Of a stretch of 59,113 nt of DNA, positions 13,970 to 21,318 are shown piece after piece (position 1 is the first letter of the stretch; the number at the start of each line of letters is the position of its first letter). The stretch comes from a virus. Lineage: Duplodnaviria > Caudoviricetes. The notes under the pieces were generated by a model, which had not been told where the DNA came from, did no database searches, and saw nothing but the letters and a program-made list of their open reading frames with translations. The stretch lies in IMG/VR virus record IMGVR_UViG_3300031578_000036, positions 1-59,113 of that record. One strand, given 5' to 3'. The translations under genes and the position numbers were made by a program.

Positions 13970-14241
13970 GGTACCGCCTCCGGGGCGCGGTAGTACACAT
14001 CGCAATCCACGGGGGCCAGGTCTCGCATCTCCCGCATGGTCCTGTATTCACCGCACCGAACCTTGATCGCTATCGTGTCGGCGTTCGCCGGTGTCGCGTG
14101 GAGCCACGGCGGGTCGATGTCCTCCGGTGCCGTGATGGCGATTCGCACCTCCACCCGAGAGCCAATAGGTAGGGGGCCACCTACCATGTCCTCGACCAGC
14201 TTGCCGATAGTGGTGGCGTCAAACTCCATTGGCTTGCTCAT
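13966..14241 (-). CDS. Hypothetical protein
   Basis: AAGGAGG RBS before MSKPMEF. Confidence 0.55.
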   Translation of the reverse strand: MSKPMEFDATTIGKLVEDMVGGPLPIGSRVEVRIAITAPEDIDPPWLHATPANADTIAIKVRCGEYRTMREMRDLAPVDCDVYYRAPEAVP

Positions 14242-14333
14242 AGGTCCCCTCCTTATCGCCAATATGTCCAGCCTATTGCACCCTCGCCAGTACCCGGTCA
14301 GCGTATGCCATGGCTCCCGGGACAGGTGCAGGC

Positions 14334-14684
14334 TCACGGCATCACCCCGCAGTCATCCCAAAGCGGATTTGAGTGGCTTGGATTCCCCCGGAGCACGTTG
14401 TGGAGCAGTTCGTGCGCGCCCACCTTCAGGTCGTCCACGACGGGGCGCAGGAGGTAGATGCTGTTCGGCTTCTCCCAGCCGCCCAGCGCATCTGGGTGGC
14501 CAGCGATCTCCTCCACCACGAACCACCGCGCATCGCGCGCCGATACGTCCCGCCCCGTACACGCGCTGATGAGTGCCGCCGCTGCGTCCTGCACCGTGCC
14601 AGGCTCCATCGGCACCGGATCCACCACGTCTAGCGTGCCGCTGCACCCGGCCATCAGCATGACAGCCAGCAACGCCACCCTCAT
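14334..14684 (-). CDS. Putative lipoprotein with HExxH metallopeptidase motif
   Basis: Signal and lipobox MRVALLAVMLMAGC; AHELLH motif. Confidence 0.6.
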   Translation of the reverse strand: MRVALLAVMLMAGCSGTLDVVDPVPMEPGTVQDAAAALISACTGRDVSARDARWFVVEEIAGHPDALGGWEKPNSIYLLRPVVDDLKVGAHELLHNVLRGNPSHSNPLWDDCGVMP

Positions 14685-15382
14685 GCCGCCCGCCTCCTCA
14701 GCCACGCATCGGCCAACTGCCAGTCGGCCTCCGTGTCCACGTCCAGCCCCTCCAGGGCGTCCACGACCACCGGCCGCGTCTTCGGCACCCAATACCGGCC
14801 CTGTGCCCTGAGCGTGCGGGCAGAGGCGATCTGACAGCCGCCCGTGCTCACGTAGCACTTCGGGGGTCGGGGCCAGCCGATCAAATACGGGTCGGCGGCA
14901 CCGCCCGGTGGCCTGAGCGGGGCCAGCCAGTTGGATGAATTGGCGTAGCGCAGCGCCTCCCGGTGGGCCCCGCGTACCGTGGCGACCGAGGCGCAGGGAT
15001 CGCGCTCCCAGAGCTCCATGCAGCGCCGGATCGTCTCAGCGGTGCGTAGCGGGCTGGTGGGCAGCAGCATCCCTACGGCGTGCTCATCGTCCTCGGGGGT
15101 GTCCAGCTTGTCCATGACCCAGAGCACCACGTCCACGGCGCTGACGCTCGACTCGGACAGGTGGGGCGGGCGGAACAGCACCTCGGCCACGTTGGTGCGC
15201 CACGACGTCTCGCCCACCTCCGTCTCATCGGTCGCCACAACGACGTGCCCGCTGAGGAGCAGCGCCTCGCGTACCGTGTGCAGGAACATGGGCAGGTCGT
15301 CCGGTCCCGTGGGCCTCGTGTTCTTGCCCGGACACCGCTCGCTCTCGCCCTTCACGGGGATGACCCACAGGTACTCAGCCAC
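14681..15382 (-). CDS. neuA: Acylneuraminate cytidylyltransferase (CMP-nonulosonate synthetase)
   Basis: VIPVKGESERCPGKN, VVATD, RPPHLS, LLPTSPLR and LDVDTEADW are all NeuA-family motifs. Confidence 0.88.
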   Translation of the reverse strand: MAEYLWVIPVKGESERCPGKNTRPTGPDDLPMFLHTVREALLLSGHVVVATDETEVGETSWRTNVAEVLFRPPHLSESSVSAVDVVLWVMDKLDTPEDDEHAVGMLLPTSPLRTAETIRRCMELWERDPCASVATVRGAHREALRYANSSNWLAPLRPPGGAADPYLIGWPRPPKCYVSTGGCQIASARTLRAQGRYWVPKTRPVVVDALEGLDVDTEADWQLADAWLRRRAA

Positions 15383-15620
15383 CGTGGGCCGCGTCCTCGG
15401 CCTGCATATCAGCCCAGCGTGCCCTCAGTGGAGGACAAAGCAGTTCTCGCACGACGGCCGCCATCGGCTTGCCCTCGCGCTCCGAGACTTCGCGCAGCAT
15501 ACAAGCGCTCTCGGGGCTGAGGTTGACGCCGATGCGCTCTACGTTGCCACCAAGCGGCGACGGTAGGGGCCGCTTCCGTGGTCGTCCGGGCTTCTTTACT
15601 CCATGCGCCCCACTGTCCAT
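15375..15620 (-). CDS. Ribbon-helix-helix DNA-binding protein
   Basis: PGRPRKR plus RIGVNLSPESACMLREVSEREGKPMAAVVRELL. Confidence 0.65.
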   Translation of the reverse strand: MDSGAHGVKKPGRPRKRPLPSPLGGNVERIGVNLSPESACMLREVSEREGKPMAAVVRELLCPPLRARWADMQAEDAAHGG

Positions 15621-15644
15621 AATATCCCCCTTGGTTGAAGTAAC

Positions 15645-16076
15645 TCAGGCTACGTCTTCCAGGGCCGACATATCGCCTATGATACCGGCCAGGTCGTGTT
15701 CCGCTGCCAGGATGCGCCGGGGTTCGGCGGCCTTCACCAGCGCGATTCCGTGGCCTCGCGCCATCTGCTTCTGCAATAGCCCGCGGACGTGGGCCGAATG
15801 CTGATCCAGCTCCAGGTCGGGCGTGAAGATCACCAGCAGCCGCTTCTCCGGTGCCGCCGTCACTACGCCACCCATCCGGTCAGGCCGCACGCTCAAGTCA
15901 CCAAGCCCCTGTAGCCATAGGCACTCGAAGATCCGGCATTCATCGGGGCGGGTGTCGTAGATGGCGCAGCCGTGCGGGCTCAGGTGCTCGCACGGCGTCC
16001 CGGCCCCCTTCTGAAGCGCCTCCACGGCAAGCCAGGTGCAGCACATGGAACAACTGCCACAACGACGTGCGGTCAT
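15645..16076 (-). CDS. YkgJ-like CxxCxxCC cysteine-cluster protein
   Basis: CGSCSMCC...C.HL...GCAIY..RP.EC..F.C.W pattern. Confidence 0.8.
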   Translation of the reverse strand: MTARRCGSCSMCCTWLAVEALQKGAGTPCEHLSPHGCAIYDTRPDECRIFECLWLQGLGDLSVRPDRMGGVVTAAPEKRLLVIFTPDLELDQHSAHVRGLLQKQMARGHGIALVKAAEPRRILAAEHDLAGIIGDMSALEDVA

Positions 16077-16158
16077 CCGGGTCCCCTCCGGTTGCCCTAT
16101 TCGGTAAGCCTAACCTACAACGCCGCCCGGCAATTATCCAGTAGCGGGCTCCCGGGCA

Positions 16159-18489
16159 TCACGGCTTGACGCGCCGCGCAGCCTCCGGGTTCGGCACCAT
16201 GATCTCCTGGTGGTGGTACCCCAGCCGCGAATAGTCCAACATCACGCTATCGTACCCGGCGCGGTGCAGGGCGGCGGTAACATCACGCGCGGTTGCTGTT
16301 GGCGTCAGATCAAGTGCACCCCTCACGAGGGCCTCTTTGTCCATGCCCCACTTGTCCGCCGCCAGGCGGAGTGGATTCTTCAGGGTTACATCGAAGGCGA
16401 GCGTCTTCTGACCCTTTCCGGCGATGTTCGGGTCGGTTGATAGATATGCTCCGCGTCCCAAGTAACCGGGATCCGTTCCCGTCCCAAAACGTGCGGGGTC
16501 GAAGACATCAAACTCCTCCCCGGCCGTGGCATGAAAGGCCCGGAACGTCGCGGGCTCATCGGGAAGCGATGCCAAAGCTTCTCGGAGTCCAGCCGGGGCG
16601 GTTGTGCCTCGGGCCGCCGCCCCCCGTCGTGCGTTCTCGCGGGCTGCCCGTTCTTCCTCGATCTGGCGGATCCGCGCGTCCGTGCGCTGGCCTGCCGCGC
16701 TCCGCGTCTTGCGCGTGTCCACGATGCGTGTGTCACAACGGCAGTTGTGGGTAGCGTAACCGTCTGCGATGTAGTAACTTGAAGTGGTTTCGAGGTTATA
16801 CACCCAACCGGAGAAGTGGCGATGGCTTTGAAGAAGGACTTGCCCGAAACGGTAATCGCGCAACTCTACCGCGACATGGAGTGGTCCGAGTTGCAGGTCG
16901 CCAAGCACCTCCACGTCGACCGGAGGACCATCCGCAAGCGCCTGCTCGCCCTCGGCATTCAACCCCGGGGGCGTAGTGAGGCTGAGTTGCTGAAGTGGAG
17001 CCACCGGACCCCCACCCAGCGCCACTTCCAGGTGTCCGCCGCCCACGATGCTGTCCGAGGCCAACCCCAGGGATTCTTGCATAAGTGCAGCATCGCCCTC
17101 GGGAAGCAGCGCACCCTCCCGAACGTTTCGCCCCTGGAACTCGACGCTATGCGCATGCTCCAGGCCCACGGGCTCGATCCCGTCCAGCAACTCGCGATAG
17201 GTCCCTACAATTGCGACCTGGCCCTCGATCCCGTCGCCGTGGAAATCTGGGGCGGCAACTTTCACTTTTTCGGCAGACACTTCGCCCGCGTGGAGGAACG
17301 CTTCCGCTATATCCTCAATGCGGGCTGGTGCATCTACGTCCTGCCCATCACCGTCCCCGACCCCCTGACTGAAACCAGGGTGCGCGATCTCGTCACCTAC
17401 ATTCACGCTGCCCGCCGGCACCCACCCGTGCCGCGTGAGTACCGGGTGGTTTGGCGTGCAGGAGAGTGGGAGCGCGTCGGCACAGCGGAGGATGATGAGA
17501 TCGCCGTGAAACCACCGTTTCGTGGCGCCCACGATCCGACCACGGGGCGCTACTACCGCCTCGCCGGGTAGACACGACGGATGAATCGGCGGGTCGCCCT
17601 CGGGGAACGATTGCCCTACCGGCACGGTCGTTTTGTGGAGCCGCATACAGATATCGCATGTCCGTTCCGAAGGCGACGCCAGCCACATGATCTCGTGGTA
17701 TTCGGGGTTGAGCGCACCCTCGCGCATGGCCTGGGTCCAGAACGCCGAACGGCCGGCTGTCACGGCTCGGGTCGCCTCGGTCCTGGCTATGGTCAGGGCG
17801 CGCTGCGTGATGGCCCGCTGTTGGTAGGCGTCGGCCAGCCGGTTGGCGTTCGCCAGCGTCACCTGGGCATTGCGCCGCACCACGTCCCGGCTCATGGCCC
17901 ACCGCTCGTGCAGGTAGTCCACGCCCAGGTCCCGGTCGGCCGCCTCAATGACGCCTTGCCGAAACGACGTGACGGCCCGGGCCTGCATCTGCGTCAGCCC
18001 GATGCTGGACCGGATGGCCCGAGCTGCTGCCTGGGTACCGAGTCCGTTCTCGTAGGCCAGTCGAGTGGCGAGTCGCACCGCTGCCCGTGTTTCGTCCGTC
18101 ACCTCGCGGATCAGCGTCGGGAGGTGGCTGTTCAGGTAGTTGACCACGAGCGGGTCGATGACCTGCCAGCCCATGCTGACCGTGCCAGGCATCCGGGTCA
18201 GGGCGAGGCGGCCGCCCTCCTCCATGGCCGAGCGCAGCCCGGGGCCCATCTCCTGGCCCAACGCGGCGGCCAGCGTCTGCCAGTCCACCGCGCCCTCGAC
18301 CAGCGCCCAGTTACCCGCCTCGAAGGCGGCGGCGATCCGCGCCATGCTCGTGGACTTCATGGCCTGCAACAGCGCCTGCTCAATGCCCGGATACAGCTTT
18401 ATGCCCATGCGCTCGTAGGCGGCGAGCGTTTCGCGCCAGAGCGCGTCCATGCGTGGCGGCGTCTTCCGTGCCTTCACGAGCCAAGTCAC
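16159..18489 (-). CDS. MuF (gp7-like) minor head protein with intein and C-terminal ADP-ribosyltransferase-like domain
   Basis: RALTIARTE, W...ERTCDIC..LH and PPIHPS|CRC, the MuF motif split by the intein. C-terminal FHAT...FDVFD...GRGAYLST...LKNPL...GYDSV...EIMV. Directly follows the portal. Confidence 0.88.
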   Translation of the reverse strand: MTWLVKARKTPPRMDALWRETLAAYERMGIKLYPGIEQALLQAMKSTSMARIAAAFEAGNWALVEGAVDWQTLAAALGQEMGPGLRSAMEEGGRLALTRMPGTVSMGWQVIDPLVVNYLNSHLPTLIREVTDETRAAVRLATRLAYENGLGTQAAARAIRSSIGLTQMQARAVTSFRQGVIEAADRDLGVDYLHERWAMSRDVVRRNAQVTLANANRLADAYQQRAITQRALTIARTEATRAVTAGRSAFWTQAMREGALNPEYHEIMWLASPSERTCDICMRLHKTTVPVGQSFPEGDPPIHPSCLPGEAVVAPRGRIVGATKRWFHGDLIILRCADALPLSCTPNHPVLTRHGWVPAGSVNVGDEIAHPGFSQGVGDGDGQDVDAPARIEDIAEAFLHAGEVSAEKVKVAAPDFHGDGIEGQVAIVGTYRELLDGIEPVGLEHAHSVEFQGRNVREGALLPEGDAALMQESLGLASDSIVGGGHLEVALGGGPVAPLQQLSLTTPPGLNAEGEQALADGPPVDVEVLGDLQLGPLHVAVELRDYRFGQVLLQSHRHFSGWVYNLETTSSYYIADGYATHNCRCDTRIVDTRKTRSAAGQRTDARIRQIEEERAARENARRGAAARGTTAPAGLREALASLPDEPATFRAFHATAGEEFDVFDPARFGTGTDPGYLGRGAYLSTDPNIAGKGQKTLAFDVTLKNPLRLAADKWGMDKEALVRGALDLTPTATARDVTAALHRAGYDSVMLDYSRLGYHHQEIMVPNPEAARRVKP
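16744..17574 (-). mobile_element. Intein (277 aa) in MuF
   Basis: Block A CLPGEA, block B TPNHPVLT..GW, block F VYNLET..YYIADG, block G THN followed by Cys+1. Inserted in the conserved HPxCRC motif. Confidence 0.92.
16822..17571 (+). CDS. HTH + DUF559/Vsr-like (PD-(D/E)xK) endonuclease encoded antisense inside the MuF intein
   Basis: HTH: LY...WSELQVAKHLHVDRRTIRKRL..LGI. Nuclease: SPLE...IGPYNCDLAL..VAVEIWGGNFH...ILNAGW. GGAGA RBS 7 nt before ATG 16822; G/C-rich third codon positions. Confidence 0.85.
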   Translation: MALKKDLPETVIAQLYRDMEWSELQVAKHLHVDRRTIRKRLLALGIQPRGRSEAELLKWSHRTPTQRHFQVSAAHDAVRGQPQGFLHKCSIALGKQRTLPNVSPLELDAMRMLQAHGLDPVQQLAIGPYNCDLALDPVAVEIWGGNFHFFGRHFARVEERFRYILNAGWCIYVLPITVPDPLTETRVRDLVTYIHAARRHPPVPREYRVVWRAGEWERVGTAEDDEIAVKPPFRGAHDPTTGRYYRLAG

Positions 18490-19859
18490 GCGGGCGCTTC
18501 CTCACCCGGCACGTCGGGCTCACCCGGCACGACCACGGGCGCCGGGGCCTCTGGCATGGGCGGCGGCGGCCGGAGCGCACGCTCGCCCTCCGGTACCGCA
18601 GGCAGCCGTGCGGCTTCGCGCAGGTGGTCCTCCAGCACGTCGTCAGGGAACAGCGGGGCACCGGCCCGGGACAGCCGCTCGATGAACGTACCGAGCACGT
18701 CCAGGTCCACCCGCTCCACGCCACCGTGGGCCAGGGTCGGGCATTCCTCTGTGCCCCACCCGTTCAGGGCCATGAGCCGTGGGATGGCGTGGCGGTTGAA
18801 TGTTTCGGCCACCTCGTCCAGCACGCTGTTCATGGCGATGGTGAACAACTCGCTCTTGTCGGTGCTCAGCGCGCGGTTGCCCGAATCGGTACCTAGCAGA
18901 ATGAAATCGGCCAGCAGCGTGGCGGCGATGCGCTGGTCATACCGCTTGACCACCGGGTCGGTGTCCACCCGCTGTTCCCCGGTGGCGGACTTCAACTCGA
19001 AGTCATAGAGCTTGTTGCCGAGCGCGTCGTAGGCCAGCGGCATGACGAGGCCCTTCATCTCATCGTTGCGTATGCGCGTTGCGGTTAGCAGGAACGTCTC
19101 ATAACGCGCCCTGTCATCCGACGATGCGCTCGATGCCGTGATCTGCGGCGGAACCCACATCACCGGCAGCCCCGGCCCCCGCTCGATGCTGATGGCCTCA
19201 ATGTCCTGGATGCGCTTCTTCATGTACCAGGACGTGAACGCCCGCTCCAGCAGGCTGCGCCCCTCGGGATTGCCCTTGGCCGCCGTCGTGCGGAATAGCA
19301 GACTCTTCTCAATCGGGATCGTGTAGACCAGCCCCCGGTTCGGGTCGCGCTGGACCATGGCCGTGACGCCGTTCGAGTCGTCAAACACGAAGTGGTCGCG
19401 TGTCTCCTGGGAGCGGCCCGTGATCTTGCGCCAGCCAATCCGGCCGTCCGTGTACTTGCTCGAGGAGCCGGGCGAGTCCTTGACCGGACCCGCGCGCTTC
19501 TTGTAGACGAGTTCGGACCACTCCCAGCCGTAGACGAGGAAGGTCAGGATCTCACCGAGCATGTCCGTCCACGAATGGCTCATGTCCTCCATGCAGCCCT
19601 CCACGAACTCGACCTGCTCCGCGGCCTGGGGGCCGTCACCTCCCGCCTCCACGCGCCACGGCACCTGACGGGCGAGCATCTCGATGGCGAACAGGCCAGC
19701 GCCCACCACGGGGTCATAGCGGCTCATCTCCGTCCAGACCTTCACAGCCAGGGTGCCCTTGAGCTGCCTCATTGGCTGGTCGCTAGGCAGGCCGCCGGAC
19801 ACCTGTAGTCCGCTGACGCCAGCCTCACCCATCAGGTCAACCTTCGTGTCTTCTGCCAT
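18486..19859 (-). CDS. Portal protein (DUF935 / Mu gp29-like)
   Basis: YGWEWSELVYK, GNPEGRSLL, LADFILLG and AIPRLMALNG motifs; follows TerL. Confidence 0.88.
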   Translation of the reverse strand: MAEDTKVDLMGEAGVSGLQVSGGLPSDQPMRQLKGTLAVKVWTEMSRYDPVVGAGLFAIEMLARQVPWRVEAGGDGPQAAEQVEFVEGCMEDMSHSWTDMLGEILTFLVYGWEWSELVYKKRAGPVKDSPGSSSKYTDGRIGWRKITGRSQETRDHFVFDDSNGVTAMVQRDPNRGLVYTIPIEKSLLFRTTAAKGNPEGRSLLERAFTSWYMKKRIQDIEAISIERGPGLPVMWVPPQITASSASSDDRARYETFLLTATRIRNDEMKGLVMPLAYDALGNKLYDFELKSATGEQRVDTDPVVKRYDQRIAATLLADFILLGTDSGNRALSTDKSELFTIAMNSVLDEVAETFNRHAIPRLMALNGWGTEECPTLAHGGVERVDLDVLGTFIERLSRAGAPLFPDDVLEDHLREAARLPAVPEGERALRPPPPMPEAPAPVVVPGEPDVPGEEAPA

Positions 19860-19908
19860 CGGCCCCTAGCTCCCCTAGTCCTCGGTCTGGGTCAACGTCC
19901 CCGGTTCG

Positions 19909-21318
19909 CTACAGTCTCCATGCTGGTACCTGCACGAGCCCATCTAGTCTTAGGCCCACCACGGGCGCCTCGGCCTCATGCGCCAGCATCAGTTCCCACA
20001 GCGCCCAGGCCCGGGCATCGGCTCGGTCGGGGCTGGGCATCCGCTCGCCTTCGATCCACGTACACATCTGGTCTTCCAGGTCACCGAACGTCCCGACGTG
20101 GTGGACCCTGCCCTGCTCGTCCAAGGCGGCCACAGGCTCGAATCGCTTGTGCTTGCCCTGACTTGCGTGGACCTTCTGCACGTTCACGGTCGGGTCAATG
20201 GTGCGGATCGTGTGCGCTACCATGTCACCGCCCTGGTTCGCCTCGGCCACCACGGCGTCCGCCTTGAATCGGTGGTACAGGCGCACGGCCGTCTCGCCCC
20301 ATTCCTGGGGGGAGTAGCGCCCGCTCGCGTCCTCGAGCACATAGCCATGCTGCTTGAGCGATACCGGGCCGTCCACGCCAGCCACCACGATGCCCGTCTC
20401 GTCGGACTTCGACGTGGCCGTAATGGCGGGGTCCACACCGACCACGATGCGCGCCAGGTGCGGCTCCTGGAGCACGCGGTTGTCGTCAATCGTCTTCCGG
20501 TGCCATAGCGCCCGGGGATCGTCGCTCAGGATCTTGGCATAGATTTCCTGCTGGCCGAGCGTGGTGCCCTCGAGCGGGGCGATGACCGTATCGTAGAACA
20601 GCGGGCTCAGGTTGTAGCGGTTGACGTAGCTGGACGACGTGACCATGCGCCACGCCGGATCGGTACTGCACCGGGCCAGCACGTCCTTGACCAGCTTCAT
20701 GGGCTTGGGCGTGGTTGTGACGCACACCTTCGGCGCGTCCAGTTTGGCCTCGCGCATCCCGAACATCAGGTTGTCCCACGTCTCTTGCGGGTAGCGCCAG
20801 GCGGCCAACTCATCGCACCATGCCCTGTCCCCGCCGAACCCGCGCGTCTGCTCAGGGTTGGCGCCGGAGAACACGGTAGCCGTTGCACCCGTGGGCCAGG
20901 TCAGGCGGCGCTTGCTCGGCACGTACTCGGGGCGCTCCCATGGTGGGGCCACGGTCATAATGCCGCTCAGGCCCTCTACCATGACGTCGCGCACATCGCC
21001 GGGTGTCTTGCCTATGATCGCCATGTGCCTGCGCTCGTCCCCGGCCATTGCCTCAGTGTGCATCCATTCGGCGCCCGTCCTCGTTTTGCCTGCGCCTCGC
21101 CCTGCCAGTAGCAGCCACATGAACCATACGCCTTCGGGTGGGAATTGGTCGGGCCTGCCCCAGAAGTCCCAATTCCATTCCAGCCCGATCCAGTCTTCAT
21201 CGCTGAGGCTTTTGAGCCAGGCGGTTCTCTGTGATTCGGGCAGCGATGCCAGCCAAACGGCCCACGACAGCCCGTCGGGCCTCGGCTGCAACCTCTGCAA
21301 TTTCGATGGCATCTCCAT
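19909..21318 (-). CDS. terL: Terminase large subunit
   Basis: Walker A AGRGAGKTR, Walker B AWCDE, VTTTP coupling motif, nuclease motifs VGVDPA...DETG...SPDRADA. Confidence 0.95.
   Translation of the reverse strand: MEMPSKLQRLQPRPDGLSWAVWLASLPESQRTAWLKSLSDEDWIGLEWNWDFWGRPDQFPPEGVWFMWLLLAGRGAGKTRTGAEWMHTEAMAGDERRHMAIIGKTPGDVRDVMVEGLSGIMTVAPPWERPEYVPSKRRLTWPTGATATVFSGANPEQTRGFGGDRAWCDELAAWRYPQETWDNLMFGMREAKLDAPKVCVTTTPKPMKLVKDVLARCSTDPAWRMVTSSSYVNRYNLSPLFYDTVIAPLEGTTLGQQEIYAKILSDDPRALWHRKTIDDNRVLQEPHLARIVVGVDPAITATSKSDETGIVVAGVDGPVSLKQHGYVLEDASGRYSPQEWGETAVRLYHRFKADAVVAEANQGGDMVAHTIRTIDPTVNVQKVHASQGKHKRFEPVAALDEQGRVHHVGTFGDLEDQMCTWIEGERMPSPDRADARAWALWELMLAHEAEAPVVGLRLDGLVQVPAWRL

What the first reader, a model, noticed from the sequence alone, without database searches (positions are those of the whole stretch)
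16744..17574. Intein whose putative homing endonuclease is a separate gene on the opposite strand, nested inside the intein
Seen: the MuF intein has intact splicing blocks (CLPGEA; TPNHPVLT; VYNLET; THN/C). Its central ~180 aa have no LAGLIDADG or HNH motif and are skewed to G/V/E/D/A/L, like a shadow reading frame. The plus strand, codon-for-codon in register, encodes a 249-aa HTH + DUF559/Vsr-type PD-(D/E)xK nuclease (SPLE...YNCDLAL..VAVEIWGGNFH...AGW). It has its own GGAGA RBS and G/C-rich wobble positions. It starts just inside block F, and its TAG is the complement of intein codon 2 (CTA), so it fills the element almost exactly and double-codes the N-terminal splicing domain. It is the only convincing plus-strand gene in the genome. 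Known: canonical inteins carry their endonuclease in frame, and Vsr-like/EDxHD nucleases can act as homing endonucleases. Inference: this is a bidirectionally coded selfish element that splices out as protein on one strand and expresses its homing nuclease independently from the other. I am not aware of this architecture being described.
Basis: partly seen in the sequence, partly recalled or inferred. Interest (0 to 1): 0.93.

Follow-up and report, generated by a model that had tools for sequence, protein, structure and literature searches.

The report
Capsid-gene intein with antisense homing nuclease
A self-splicing protein insert (intein) in a soil phage's capsid-assembly gene carries its DNA-cutting "homing" enzyme as a separate gene on the opposite DNA strand; the arrangement is real and widespread in phages but was already described in a 2025 preprint.

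Summary
A 277-codon class-1 intein (16744-17574, minus strand) interrupts a MuF-type head-morphogenesis gene at HPS|CRC. A 249-codon ORF (16822-17571, plus strand) lies inside it, codon-for-codon antisense, and its TAG is the complement of intein codon 2.

The ORF is a real gene. It folds with high confidence (pLDDT 94) into an HTH plus a Vsr-like/EDxHD nuclease. All 138 related loci fetched encode it, and 137 keep it nested in the same register, at 42-72% G+C. Substitutions favour the plus frame in the intein middle (854:221) and the minus frame in the extein (343:66). They are balanced over the N-terminal splicing lobe (222:208), which indicates true dual coding. The nuclease's start and stop codons sit in conserved intein codons (block-F His, Leu2).

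Near-identical E. coli phages differ by exact presence or absence of the element, which fits homing.

The novelty claim fails. Antisense Vsr-like nucleases in actinobacteriophage minor-capsid inteins are described in bioRxiv 10.1101/2025.01.02.630785, and antisense LAGLIDADG inteins earlier. This is a new member of a known kind. Its breadth and dual-coding detail do not appear in that preprint's main text. Expression, cleavage and splicing are untested.

The parts
16159..18489 (-). MuF-like head morphogenesis / minor capsid gene, 776 aa precursor including the intein
   Evidence: ORF. Pfam Phage_Mu_F E=1.4e-7 at aa 215-306. PHROG head morphogenesis phrog_3517 E=1.3e-32.
17575..18489 (-). N-extein (aa 1-305), ending ...PPIHPS
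   Evidence: The Pfam MuF match stops at the junction.
16744..17574 (-). Class-1 intein, 277 aa, with Cys1, T40-x-x-H43, WVYNLET, H276-N277 and +1 Cys
   Evidence: Invariant C1 L2 H43 P44 H276 N277 in 56 aligned inteins. Foldseek hits the Mtu RecA mini-intein at prob 1.0.
17377..17574 (-). N-terminal splicing lobe (intein aa 1-66), dual-coded with the C-terminal beta domain of the nuclease
   Evidence: pLDDT 82-97. The profile matches solved inteins at positions 6-73. Synonymous/non-synonymous counts are balanced, 222:208.
16855..17376 (-). Intein middle (aa 67-240), a read-through shadow of the nuclease gene with no in-frame endonuclease domain
   Evidence: pLDDT <50 at 145-158 and 170-234. 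No Pfam hit. Plus-frame selection 854:221. aa 81-130 score higher (pLDDT 61-92), and their status is unresolved.
16744..16854 (-). C-terminal splicing lobe (aa 241-277, blocks F and G); holds the nuclease's ribosome-binding site and start codon on the other strand
   Evidence: pLDDT 93-96. Profile match 217-271 to solved inteins..
16159..16743 (-). C-extein starting CRCDTRIV..., about 194 aa, plus stop codon
16822..17571 (+). Antisense homing-endonuclease gene, 249 aa plus TAG
   Evidence: AF2 pLDDT 94.3. 71 homologues at up to 50% identity. All seven invariant residues are present.
16810..16813 (+). GGAG Shine-Dalgarno-like site, 8 nt before the ATG
   Evidence: Sequence. No test of function.
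16846..16950 (+). Helix-turn-helix region of the nuclease (aa 9-43)
   Evidence: Helices 9-17, 23-30 and 34-43. HTH_23 E=0.003. HTH families in 22-24 of 63 relatives.
17131..17418 (+). Vsr-like / EDxHD PD-(D/E)xK nuclease core (aa ~104-199), with Y129 N130 D132 E141 H148
   Evidence: Foldseek 3r3p prob 1.0, TMt 0.63. Profile vs 3r3p E=0.023 and 3hrl E=0.037. MTES_1575 in 32 of 63 relatives.
17419..17568 (+). C-terminal beta-strand domain of the nuclease (aa 200-249), antisense to intein blocks A and B; YRVVW is the complement of PNHPV
   Evidence: pLDDT 89-97. Both frames are constrained.
17569..17571 (+). TAG stop, the complement of intein Leu2 codon CTA
   Evidence: The same arrangement holds in 66 of 76 family members.
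16792..16806 (+). Relic of the family's usual start region: GAGG (antisense of Leu-Glu codons of block F) then CCA where 29 of 56 relatives have ATG
   Evidence: The window has Trp257 where relatives have His (CAT).

Best explanation
This is a mobile intein of the phage MuF/minor-capsid gene. Its homing endonuclease is a free-standing-type gene (HTH plus Vsr-like/EDxHD nuclease) written on the antisense strand of the intein, in codon-for-codon register.

On the minus strand, the whole 277-codon insert is translated as part of MuF. The two splicing lobes (aa 1-66 and about 241-277) fold into a Hint domain and excise the insert, rejoining HPS to CRC. The roughly 170 codons between them are only a stop-free shadow of the nuclease gene.

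On the plus strand, the nuclease is translated from its own start. That start lies in the antisense of block F, and the ORF runs to a stop that is the antisense of Leu2. The whole translation unit therefore travels with the intein.

During co-infection, the nuclease is inferred to cut an intein-less MuF allele at or near the HPxCxC-coding site. Repair from the intein-bearing genome would then copy the element in.

Shown here: both frames are open and conserved, selection is frame-specific, the fold is as stated, and close relatives differ by exact presence or absence. Inferred: transcription and translation of the antisense gene, its cleavage site, and splicing activity.
For: Fold. AF2 with a 63-sequence alignment gives pLDDT 94.3 and pTM 0.78. 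The best meaningful Foldseek hit is the I-Bth0305I catalytic domain 3r3p (prob 1.0, TMt 0.63). The profile hits 3r3p at E=0.023, 3hrl at E=0.037 and HTH protein 2lvs at E=6e-5. Pfam MTES_1575 REase matches 32 of 63 relatives.

The intein in its own frame. It is confident only at the ends, with pLDDT <50 at 145-158 and 170-234. It matches mini-inteins over about 101 columns. Profile positions 64 and 230 are adjacent in the KlbA mini-intein.

Conservation of the arrangement. All 82 phage and IMG/VR loci and 55 of 56 prokaryote-genome loci have a long minus ORF open across the nuclease in the same register, at G+C 0.42-0.72. The nuclease frame contains 0 TTA/CTA/TCA codons in 66 loci, against 253 expected from extein usage.

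Selection. In 21 nearest-neighbour pairs, the intein middle shows plus-synonymous/minus-non-synonymous 854 vs the reverse 221. The N-lobe overlap shows 222 vs 208. The extein control shows 66 vs 343 (15 pairs). Binomial p values are 3e-88, 0.53 and 3e-46.

Stop and start codons. The stop is the antisense of Leu2 in 66 of 76 loci, whereas CTA+TTA make up 11.5% of extein Leu codons. The start is the antisense of a His CAT at one of three block-F columns in 55 of 56 loci. At the main column the count is 29 CAT vs 2 CAC, against 46% CAT in the background.

Mobility. Phage Snoke carries a 272-aa element exactly at HPN|CRS. Phage K1ind1 lacks it, and their exteins are 332/347 aa identical.
Against: There is no evidence that the antisense gene is expressed. 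No sigma-70-like promoter or terminator was found in 16300-17900, although the host and its promoter type are unknown.

The window's own intein gives no Pfam Intein_splicing hit even at E<=10, whereas 55 of 56 aligned inteins do.

The window has lost the family's usual start: it has Trp257 (CCA) instead of His (ATG). It depends on an ATG 18 nt downstream.

Sequence-only matches to solved nucleases are weak (E about 0.02-0.04), as is the window protein's own Pfam REase hit (E=0.097).

The substitution counts have several limits. They come from divergent pairs (61-78% nt identity). They count codon columns rather than inferred events. They use a plus-guided alignment for the nuclease region. They include near-duplicate loci L013/L014 in two pairs (one of these was dropped).

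Intein aa 81-130 have pLDDT 61-92 in the intein frame, and plus-synonymous change is depressed there (0.28-0.37 vs 0.44-0.63). The simple 'shadow' label for that stretch may therefore be incomplete.

No close MuF relative of this particular phage was found to show an empty site.
Confidence: 0.85

Rival explanations
1. Shadow ORF. The plus ORF is open only because high-G+C sense codons rarely give antisense stops, and its similarity to other sequences merely mirrors conservation of the intein protein.
For: A 475-aa antisense ORF with no Pfam hit lies right next door (17581..19008). tblastn scores against Salmonella phages are similar for the two frames: plus 79-87 bits, minus 69-76 bits.
Against: The ORF stays open at 42-46% G+C. 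Substitutions favour the plus frame 854:221 in the middle, while the extein control is reversed at 66:343. pLDDT is 94 with a nuclease fold, whereas the minus-frame middle is disordered. A relative exists outside any intein (L103).
Confidence: 0.02
2. A real nuclease gene that is no longer a homing enzyme here. The element in this phage is fixed and vertically inherited, and the antisense protein is decaying, silent, or domesticated (for example as a DNA-binding regulator).
For: The canonical start is lost (Trp257). No promoter-like site was found. No related MuF alleles were found for this lineage. The preprint reports that several Vsr-like-HEN inteins look vertically inherited (section 15).
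Against: The ORF is intact. All seven invariant residues are present, as are 12 of the 13 nearly invariant positions checked (F147 replaces W). The window also differs from consensus G at position 19, read from the sequence. There is a replacement ATG with GGAG at good spacing. The family as a whole shows strong purifying selection.
Confidence: 0.1
3. An independent free-standing-type HEG that uses the intein only as a safe harbour and promotes its own spread (for example by targeting nuclease-less mini-inteins or nearby DNA), rather than homing of the intein into empty alleles.
For: A relative sits as a free-standing gene just downstream of an intein-less MuF gene (L103). Related MuF inteins in Gordonia phages appear to carry other nuclease types: 15 Gordonia records match the intein frame but only 8 match this nuclease (preprint section 8).
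Against: The ORF spans codon 2 to block F, so the nuclease and the intein cannot move separately. The only polymorphism seen is whole-element presence or absence. 137 of 138 loci are nested in one register. No mini-intein allele was seen, but none was searched for.
Confidence: 0.03

Closest known systems
Anti-sense VSR-like HEN inteins of actinobacteriophages (Gosselin, Arsenault & Gogarten, bioRxiv 10.1101/2025.01.02.630785; abstract and sections 8, 15 and 28 read, plus passages)
   Same: A full intein in the extein frame. A Vsr-like nuclease ORF on the antisense strand. No recognisable in-frame endonuclease. Minor capsid (MuF) is among the host proteins. An HHpred link to 3R3P is reported there, and a Foldseek link is found here. 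Gordonia phage Malisha carries a homologue of the window's nuclease (32.5% identity, E=2e-20).
   Different: The window is a soil metagenomic phage and is not in PhagesDB. [quoted passage not shown] Its main text has no occurrence of 'synonymous', 'start codon' or 'Salmonella'. I could not see its supplements, so I cannot tell whether Malisha-type inteins are in its clusters.
I-Bth0305I / EDxHD (Vsr-like) homing endonucleases (PDB 3r3p) and the Vsr-like HENs of fractured genes and split inteins (Dassa et al. 2009, PMC2677866: search listing and abstract only)
   Same: The Vsr-like PD-(D/E)xK catalytic fold. Association with self-splicing elements in phage genes.
   Different: Those nucleases sit in a group I intron or between split-intein halves on the sense strand. 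Here the gene is antisense and overlaps the splicing domain. Sequence similarity is marginal (E=0.023).
Anti-sense LAGLIDADG inteins (Synechocystis DnaX and Chloroflexus SpoVR-like, as cited in the preprint; Gorbalenya 1998 and Gogarten 2002 not read)
   Same: A homing endonuclease encoded on the strand opposite the intein.
   Different: A different nuclease family. I know of them only through the preprint's citation.
Canonical bifunctional inteins (e.g. PI-SceI, PI-MtuI; recalled)
   Same: Hint splicing domain, site-specific insertion, and sporadic presence/absence.
   Different: Their endonuclease is an in-frame domain of the same polypeptide.

Membership tests
Class-1 intein (Hint domain) | N-terminal Cys/Ser, block B T-x-x-H, C-terminal His-Asn, and +1 Cys/Ser/Thr | tested here: met
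   C1, T40/H43, H276-N277 and +1 Cys. C1 L2 H43 P44 H276 N277 are invariant in 56 inteins.
Class-1 intein (Hint domain) | Hint fold | tested here: met
   The AF2 model hits the Mtu RecA mini-intein at prob 1.0 over about 101 columns. The profile matches KlbA, PI-MtuI and RadA inteins at E 2e-9 to 1e-6.
Class-1 intein (Hint domain) | Match to Pfam Intein_splicing (PF14890) | tested here: inconclusive
   The window's intein has no hit at E<=10, whereas 55 of 56 aligned inteins hit at E<=0.01.
Class-1 intein (Hint domain) | Protein splicing activity | not testable with these tools
   Needs expression of the precursor.
Vsr-like / EDxHD homing endonuclease | Vsr-type PD-(D/E)xK catalytic fold | tested here: met
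   Foldseek 3r3p prob 1.0, TMt 0.63, 98 columns; 3hrl TMt 0.53.
Vsr-like / EDxHD homing endonuclease | Conserved catalytic acidic and His residues | tested here: inconclusive
   Y129 N130 D132 E141 are invariant and H148 nearly so. E141 aligns with the Glu of AIEVNG in 3r3p. I did not map the full EDxHD motif residue by residue.
Vsr-like / EDxHD homing endonuclease | Site-specific cleavage of the element-free allele | not testable with these tools
   Needs an in vitro cleavage assay.
Intein with anti-sense VSR-like HEN (2025 preprint) | Nuclease ORF on the antisense strand inside a full intein, with no in-frame endonuclease domain | tested here: met
Intein with anti-sense VSR-like HEN (2025 preprint) | Homology to the actinobacteriophage examples | tested here: inconclusive
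   Eight Gordonia phage records match. Malisha has a 316-aa antisense ORF in gene 5. Whether these are the preprint's cases is unknown, because its supplements are closed.
Mobile (homing) genetic element | Precise presence/absence at one site among close relatives | tested here: met
   Met for the family: Snoke vs K1ind1, a 272-aa gap at HPN|CRS with exteins 95.7% identical. Not shown for the window's own lineage.

The most novel reading that the evidence does not exclude
The element belongs to one ancient, very widespread lineage in which intein and antisense nuclease are obligately interlocked. The lineage includes phages of enterobacteria, Pseudomonas, Vibrio and actinobacteria, and prophages in many bacterial phyla.

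The nuclease's start codon (antisense of a block-F His CAT), its Shine-Dalgarno-like site (antisense of the Asn-Leu-Glu codons of block F) and its stop codon (antisense of the invariant Leu2) are hard-wired into conserved splicing residues. About 64 codons, possibly about 125, encode two folded domains at once.

This would be one of the clearest natural cases of long antisense dual coding. It goes beyond what the 2025 preprint's main text describes.
Probability: 0.5. Interest if true: 0.6.

Novelty: new member of a known kind. Interest (0 to 1): 0.45.

Why it matters
It shows that a homing endonuclease can serve an intein without being part of the intein protein. This supports the 'splicing domain first, nuclease gene invades later' view of intein origins.

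The family is also a natural, well-sampled example of two folded protein domains encoded on opposite strands of the same codons. That makes it useful for studying the constraints of overlapping genes.

On the practical side, gene callers miss or truncate this gene. In the five annotated phage records I opened or saw listed, it is unannotated or a partial 'hypothetical protein'. Phage genomes used in therapy and biocontrol (Jerseyvirus, Kagunavirus) therefore carry an unannotated nuclease.

Tried and rejected
Chance openness was rejected as an explanation, as set out under the first rival.

A direct phmmer search of the nuclease against PDB sequences gave only a marginal HTH hit (7bhy, E=1.4). 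The profile and fold searches were needed.

A megablast of window 14000-20000 against phages found nothing. A pattern scan of IMG/VR with the N-extein (window 17575-18489) found no relative. No empty-site allele could therefore be shown for this phage's own lineage.

The promoter/terminator consensus scan of 16300-17900 found nothing.

For sequencing runs, no RNA holder was listed: the five holders are DNA, and three may be the source.

Pfam on the three other plus ORFs that passed the composition filter, and on the neighbouring 475-aa antisense ORF, gave no family.

I considered whether intein aa 81-130 belong to the Hint fold, which would mean the nuclease core is also dual-coded. Solved mini-inteins join profile position 64 directly to about 230, and Foldseek aligns only about 101 columns. 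AF2 confidence and the depressed plus-synonymous change leave the question open.

Not done: a search for mini-intein alleles at the MuF site, a phylogeny of intein vs extein, the search of protein representatives, the protein-atlas search and complex prediction.

The Shine-Dalgarno count (34 of 56 loci) has no shuffled control.
Full report
WHAT IS THERE. The window is a 59,113-bp IMG/VR virus record from soil-type metagenomes, estimated 46% complete. It is about 65% G+C, and nearly all composition-supported ORFs lie on the minus strand. ORF 16159..18489 (-) encodes a 776-aa MuF/SPP1-gp7-type head-morphogenesis protein. It matches Pfam Phage_Mu_F at E=1.4e-7 over aa 215-306, and PHROG head morphogenesis at E=1.3e-32. 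The Pfam match stops at aa 306, where a 277-aa insert begins. The insert runs from CLPGEA to YATHN and is followed by CRC. It occupies 16744..17574, exactly the coordinates of the finding. On the plus strand, an ORF runs from 16816 (GTG) or 16822 (ATG) to 17571. Its TAG is the complement of intein codon 2 (CTA), and the two frames are codon-for-codon antisense. GGAG lies 8 nt before the ATG at 16822.

IS IT MORE THAN CHANCE? Openness alone is not, because in this G+C-rich DNA a 475-aa antisense ORF with no family match lies right next to it. Everything else is. G+C by codon position flips inside the intein: minus-frame GC1 is 0.80-0.88 and GC3 is 0.57-0.70, against GC3 of 0.8-1.0 in the N-extein. 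The plus protein has 71 database relatives at E<=1e-3 among 836 candidates, at up to 50% identity. Four of them are named 'very-short-patch-repair endonuclease' by their source. Of 63 aligned sequences (the window plus 62 relatives), 32 match Pfam REase_MTES_1575, and 22-24 match HTH families.

FOLDS. With that alignment, AlphaFold gives pLDDT 94.3 and pTM 0.78. The model has an N-terminal three-helix HTH, a helical linker, an alpha/beta core and a C-terminal beta domain. The best meaningful Foldseek hit in the PDB is the catalytic domain of the homing endonuclease I-Bth0305I (3r3p, prob 1.0, TMt 0.63, 98 columns). The endonuclease-like protein 3hrl follows. Rank 1 by E-value was a ribosomal chain at rmsd 18, which I disregard. 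The sequence profile hits 3r3p (E=0.023), 3hrl (E=0.037) and HTH proteins. These matches are weak on their own but agree with the fold result.

The intein was folded in its own frame with 56 aligned inteins. It is confident only at aa 1-66 and 241-277, and it falls below pLDDT 50 at 145-158 and 170-234. It matches mini-inteins such as Mtu RecA over about 101 columns. In the profile search, the KlbA mini-intein joins profile position 64 directly to about 230. The canonical splicing domain is therefore the two ends, and the middle has no in-frame domain.

RELATIVES KEEP THE SAME ARCHITECTURE. tblastn with the plus protein finds 120 phage records, 81 of them near full length. By organism: Salmonella 62, Pseudomonas 15, Gordonia 8, Klebsiella 8, Escherichia 6, Vibrio 4, and others. 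Every listed match lies under a head-morphogenesis or minor-capsid gene. In E. coli phage Snoke, the depositors annotated an intein-containing capsid morphogenesis protein, and the match lies on the opposite strand as an open 269-aa ORF. Gordonia phage Malisha has a 316-aa one.

All 82 loci then held, plus the window, have a long minus ORF overlapping the nuclease ORF in the same register. Their G+C ranges from 0.42 to 0.72. A scan of one genome per prokaryote species found 56 loci in many phyla, and in 55 the in-register antisense frame is open across the whole match.

In 63 of the 80 IMG/VR loci, a simple rule recovers a clean intein (Cys1 ... His-Asn|Cys with no stop) whose codon 2 is the nuclease's stop. 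The junctions are nearly all H-x-x|C ... HN|C-x-C, so this is one insertion site in the MuF motif. Across 66 loci, the nuclease frame contains no TTA, CTA or TCA codon, where extein codon usage predicts 253. The intein frame is therefore actively kept open.

WHICH FRAME IS SELECTED WHERE. The frames are in codon register, so a plus third position is a minus first position and the test is symmetric. In a codon alignment of 76 sequences, plus-frame residue identity exceeds minus-frame identity over nuclease aa 1-180. Minus exceeds plus over aa 201-240, which is intein aa 12-51.

I then took 21 greedy nearest-neighbour pairs (61-78% nt identity) and counted codon columns that differ:
- Intein middle: synonymous in plus but not in minus 854, the reverse 221.
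- Stretch overlapping the N-terminal splicing lobe: 222 vs 208.
- N-extein control, same pairs (15 usable): 66 vs 343.

Binomial p values are 3e-88, 0.53 and 3e-46. In 20-codon bins, the plus-synonymous fraction falls from 0.44-0.63 in the pure nuclease region to 0.19-0.21 where blocks A and B are antisense. Selection therefore acts on the nuclease in the middle, on MuF outside, and on both proteins over about 64 codons.

Several caveats apply. The pairs are divergent. The counts are columns, not inferred events. The nuclease-region alignment was guided by the plus translation. Near-duplicates L013 and L014 both appear.

SIGNALS EMBEDDED IN SPLICING RESIDUES. In 66 of 76 sequences, the nuclease stop is the complement of the codon that follows Cys1. 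That codon is always CTA or TTA, although these are only 11.5% of Leu codons in the same exteins. In most of the exceptions read, residue 2 is Phe, and the stop lies a few codons away.

In 55 of 56 aligned inteins, an antisense ATG (a His CAT codon) lies at one of three columns in or just before block F (G-H-V-Y-N-L-E-T): 29, 18 and 8 loci. At the main column, His is CAT 29 times and CAC twice, against 46% CAT in the exteins (p=2.5e-8). Read from the sequence, the antisense of the Asn-Leu-Glu codons gives (G/A)AGGTT about 8 nt before that ATG. This is a Shine-Dalgarno-like site. An SD-like tetramer was found before a suitable start in 34 of 56 loci, without a control.

The window has Trp at that His (CCA instead of ATG). 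It uses an ATG 18 nt downstream, which has its own GGAG. Likewise, 'PDFHGDG' in the intein frame is the antisense of the catalytic PVAVEIW, and block B PNHPV is the antisense of the nuclease's YRVVW. Both follow directly from the sequence.

MOBILITY. A megablast with Snoke's MuF gene finds 230 records. 58 cover at least 80% of it. Many Kagunavirus records match in two pieces that cover about 55% and span about 1,044 bp. K1ind1 aligns to Snoke with a single 272-residue gap exactly at HPN|CRS, and the exteins are 332/347 identical. Snoke's element is 84-91% identical in DNA to those of Salmonella Jerseyviruses. This is the sporadic, precise presence/absence pattern expected of a homing element.

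One relative (L103, a Thermoleophilia MAG) is different. Its 231-aa nuclease gene is 41% identical to the window's. It lies just downstream of, and convergent with, an intein-less MuF gene whose HPQ|CRC site is intact, and its antisense frame is closed by stops. It is either an ancestor-like free-standing form or an escapee.

The window is a new, non-actinophage member. The intein-frame search also hits 15 Gordonia records against 8 for the nuclease. This fits the preprint's report that related minor-capsid inteins carry other nuclease types.

Several things do not appear in the preprint's main text (supplements not seen). These are the breadth outside actinophages, the frame-specific substitution evidence, the overlap with the splicing lobes (the preprint says the ORFs 'typically lie outside' them), and the start and stop codons embedded in conserved intein residues.

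MECHANISM AND CONFIDENCE. The most likely reading (0.85) is a composite homing element. MuF is made by read-through of the insert and protein splicing. The nuclease is made separately from the antisense strand and cuts intein-less MuF alleles during co-infection. Shown: two conserved open frames, frame-specific selection, folds, and empty and filled alleles in relatives. Inferred: antisense transcription (no promoter identified), translation, the cleavage site, and splicing. The main residual rival (0.10) is that this particular copy is fixed and its nuclease idle or repurposed.

VERDICT. This is a new member of a known, recently described kind, and it has dual-coding features that deserve a proper study. 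Interest is 0.45.

Noticed in passing
L103:2938-3633 (+) and L103:3617-4663 (-): A 231-aa relative of the nuclease (41% identical to the window's) stands as a free gene just downstream of, and convergent with, an intein-less MuF gene whose HPQ|CRC site is intact. Its antisense frame has stops. It is the only un-nested copy among the 138 loci examined. It could be an ancestor-like free-standing HEG beside its target, or an escapee.
   Followed up: partly
window 16792-16824: The window has lost the family's usual nuclease start: block-F His is Trp257, so ATG reads CCA. The upstream GAGG relic remains. A new ATG 18 nt downstream has its own GGAG.
   Followed up: partly
window 17185-17334 (intein aa 81-130 / nuclease aa 122-171): The intein-frame model is fairly confident here (pLDDT 61-92), and plus-synonymous change is depressed (0.28-0.37). 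Solved mini-inteins nevertheless have nothing at this position. The nuclease catalytic core may also be constrained in the intein frame. Unresolved.
   Followed up: partly
window 16159-16743 (-), MuF aa 583-776: The C-extein continues for about 190 aa beyond the MuF motif. It has no Pfam hit and only a weak PHROG of unknown function (phrog_4700, E=5e-4). Some depositors label the Jerseyvirus homologues as ADP-ribosyltransferase. Not examined.
   Followed up: no
window 16744-16860: The C-terminal part of the intein is markedly less G+C-rich than its surroundings: GC1 0.55 and GC3 0.57 for MuF aa 541-580. This may reflect the embedded translation signals or a recent arrival.
   Followed up: no
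L141:1018-1419 (+); also L001 and L002: Public phage annotations miss the nuclease gene. Snoke and Malisha have no plus-strand CDS there, and vB_StyS-sam has only a truncated 'hypothetical protein'.
   Followed up: partly
phage records H115, H131, H136, H137, H147, H149, H151: Gordonia phages such as Keitabear and Angelicage match the window's intein frame but not its nuclease. [quoted passage not shown] One MuF intein lineage may therefore host several nuclease types.
   Followed up: no
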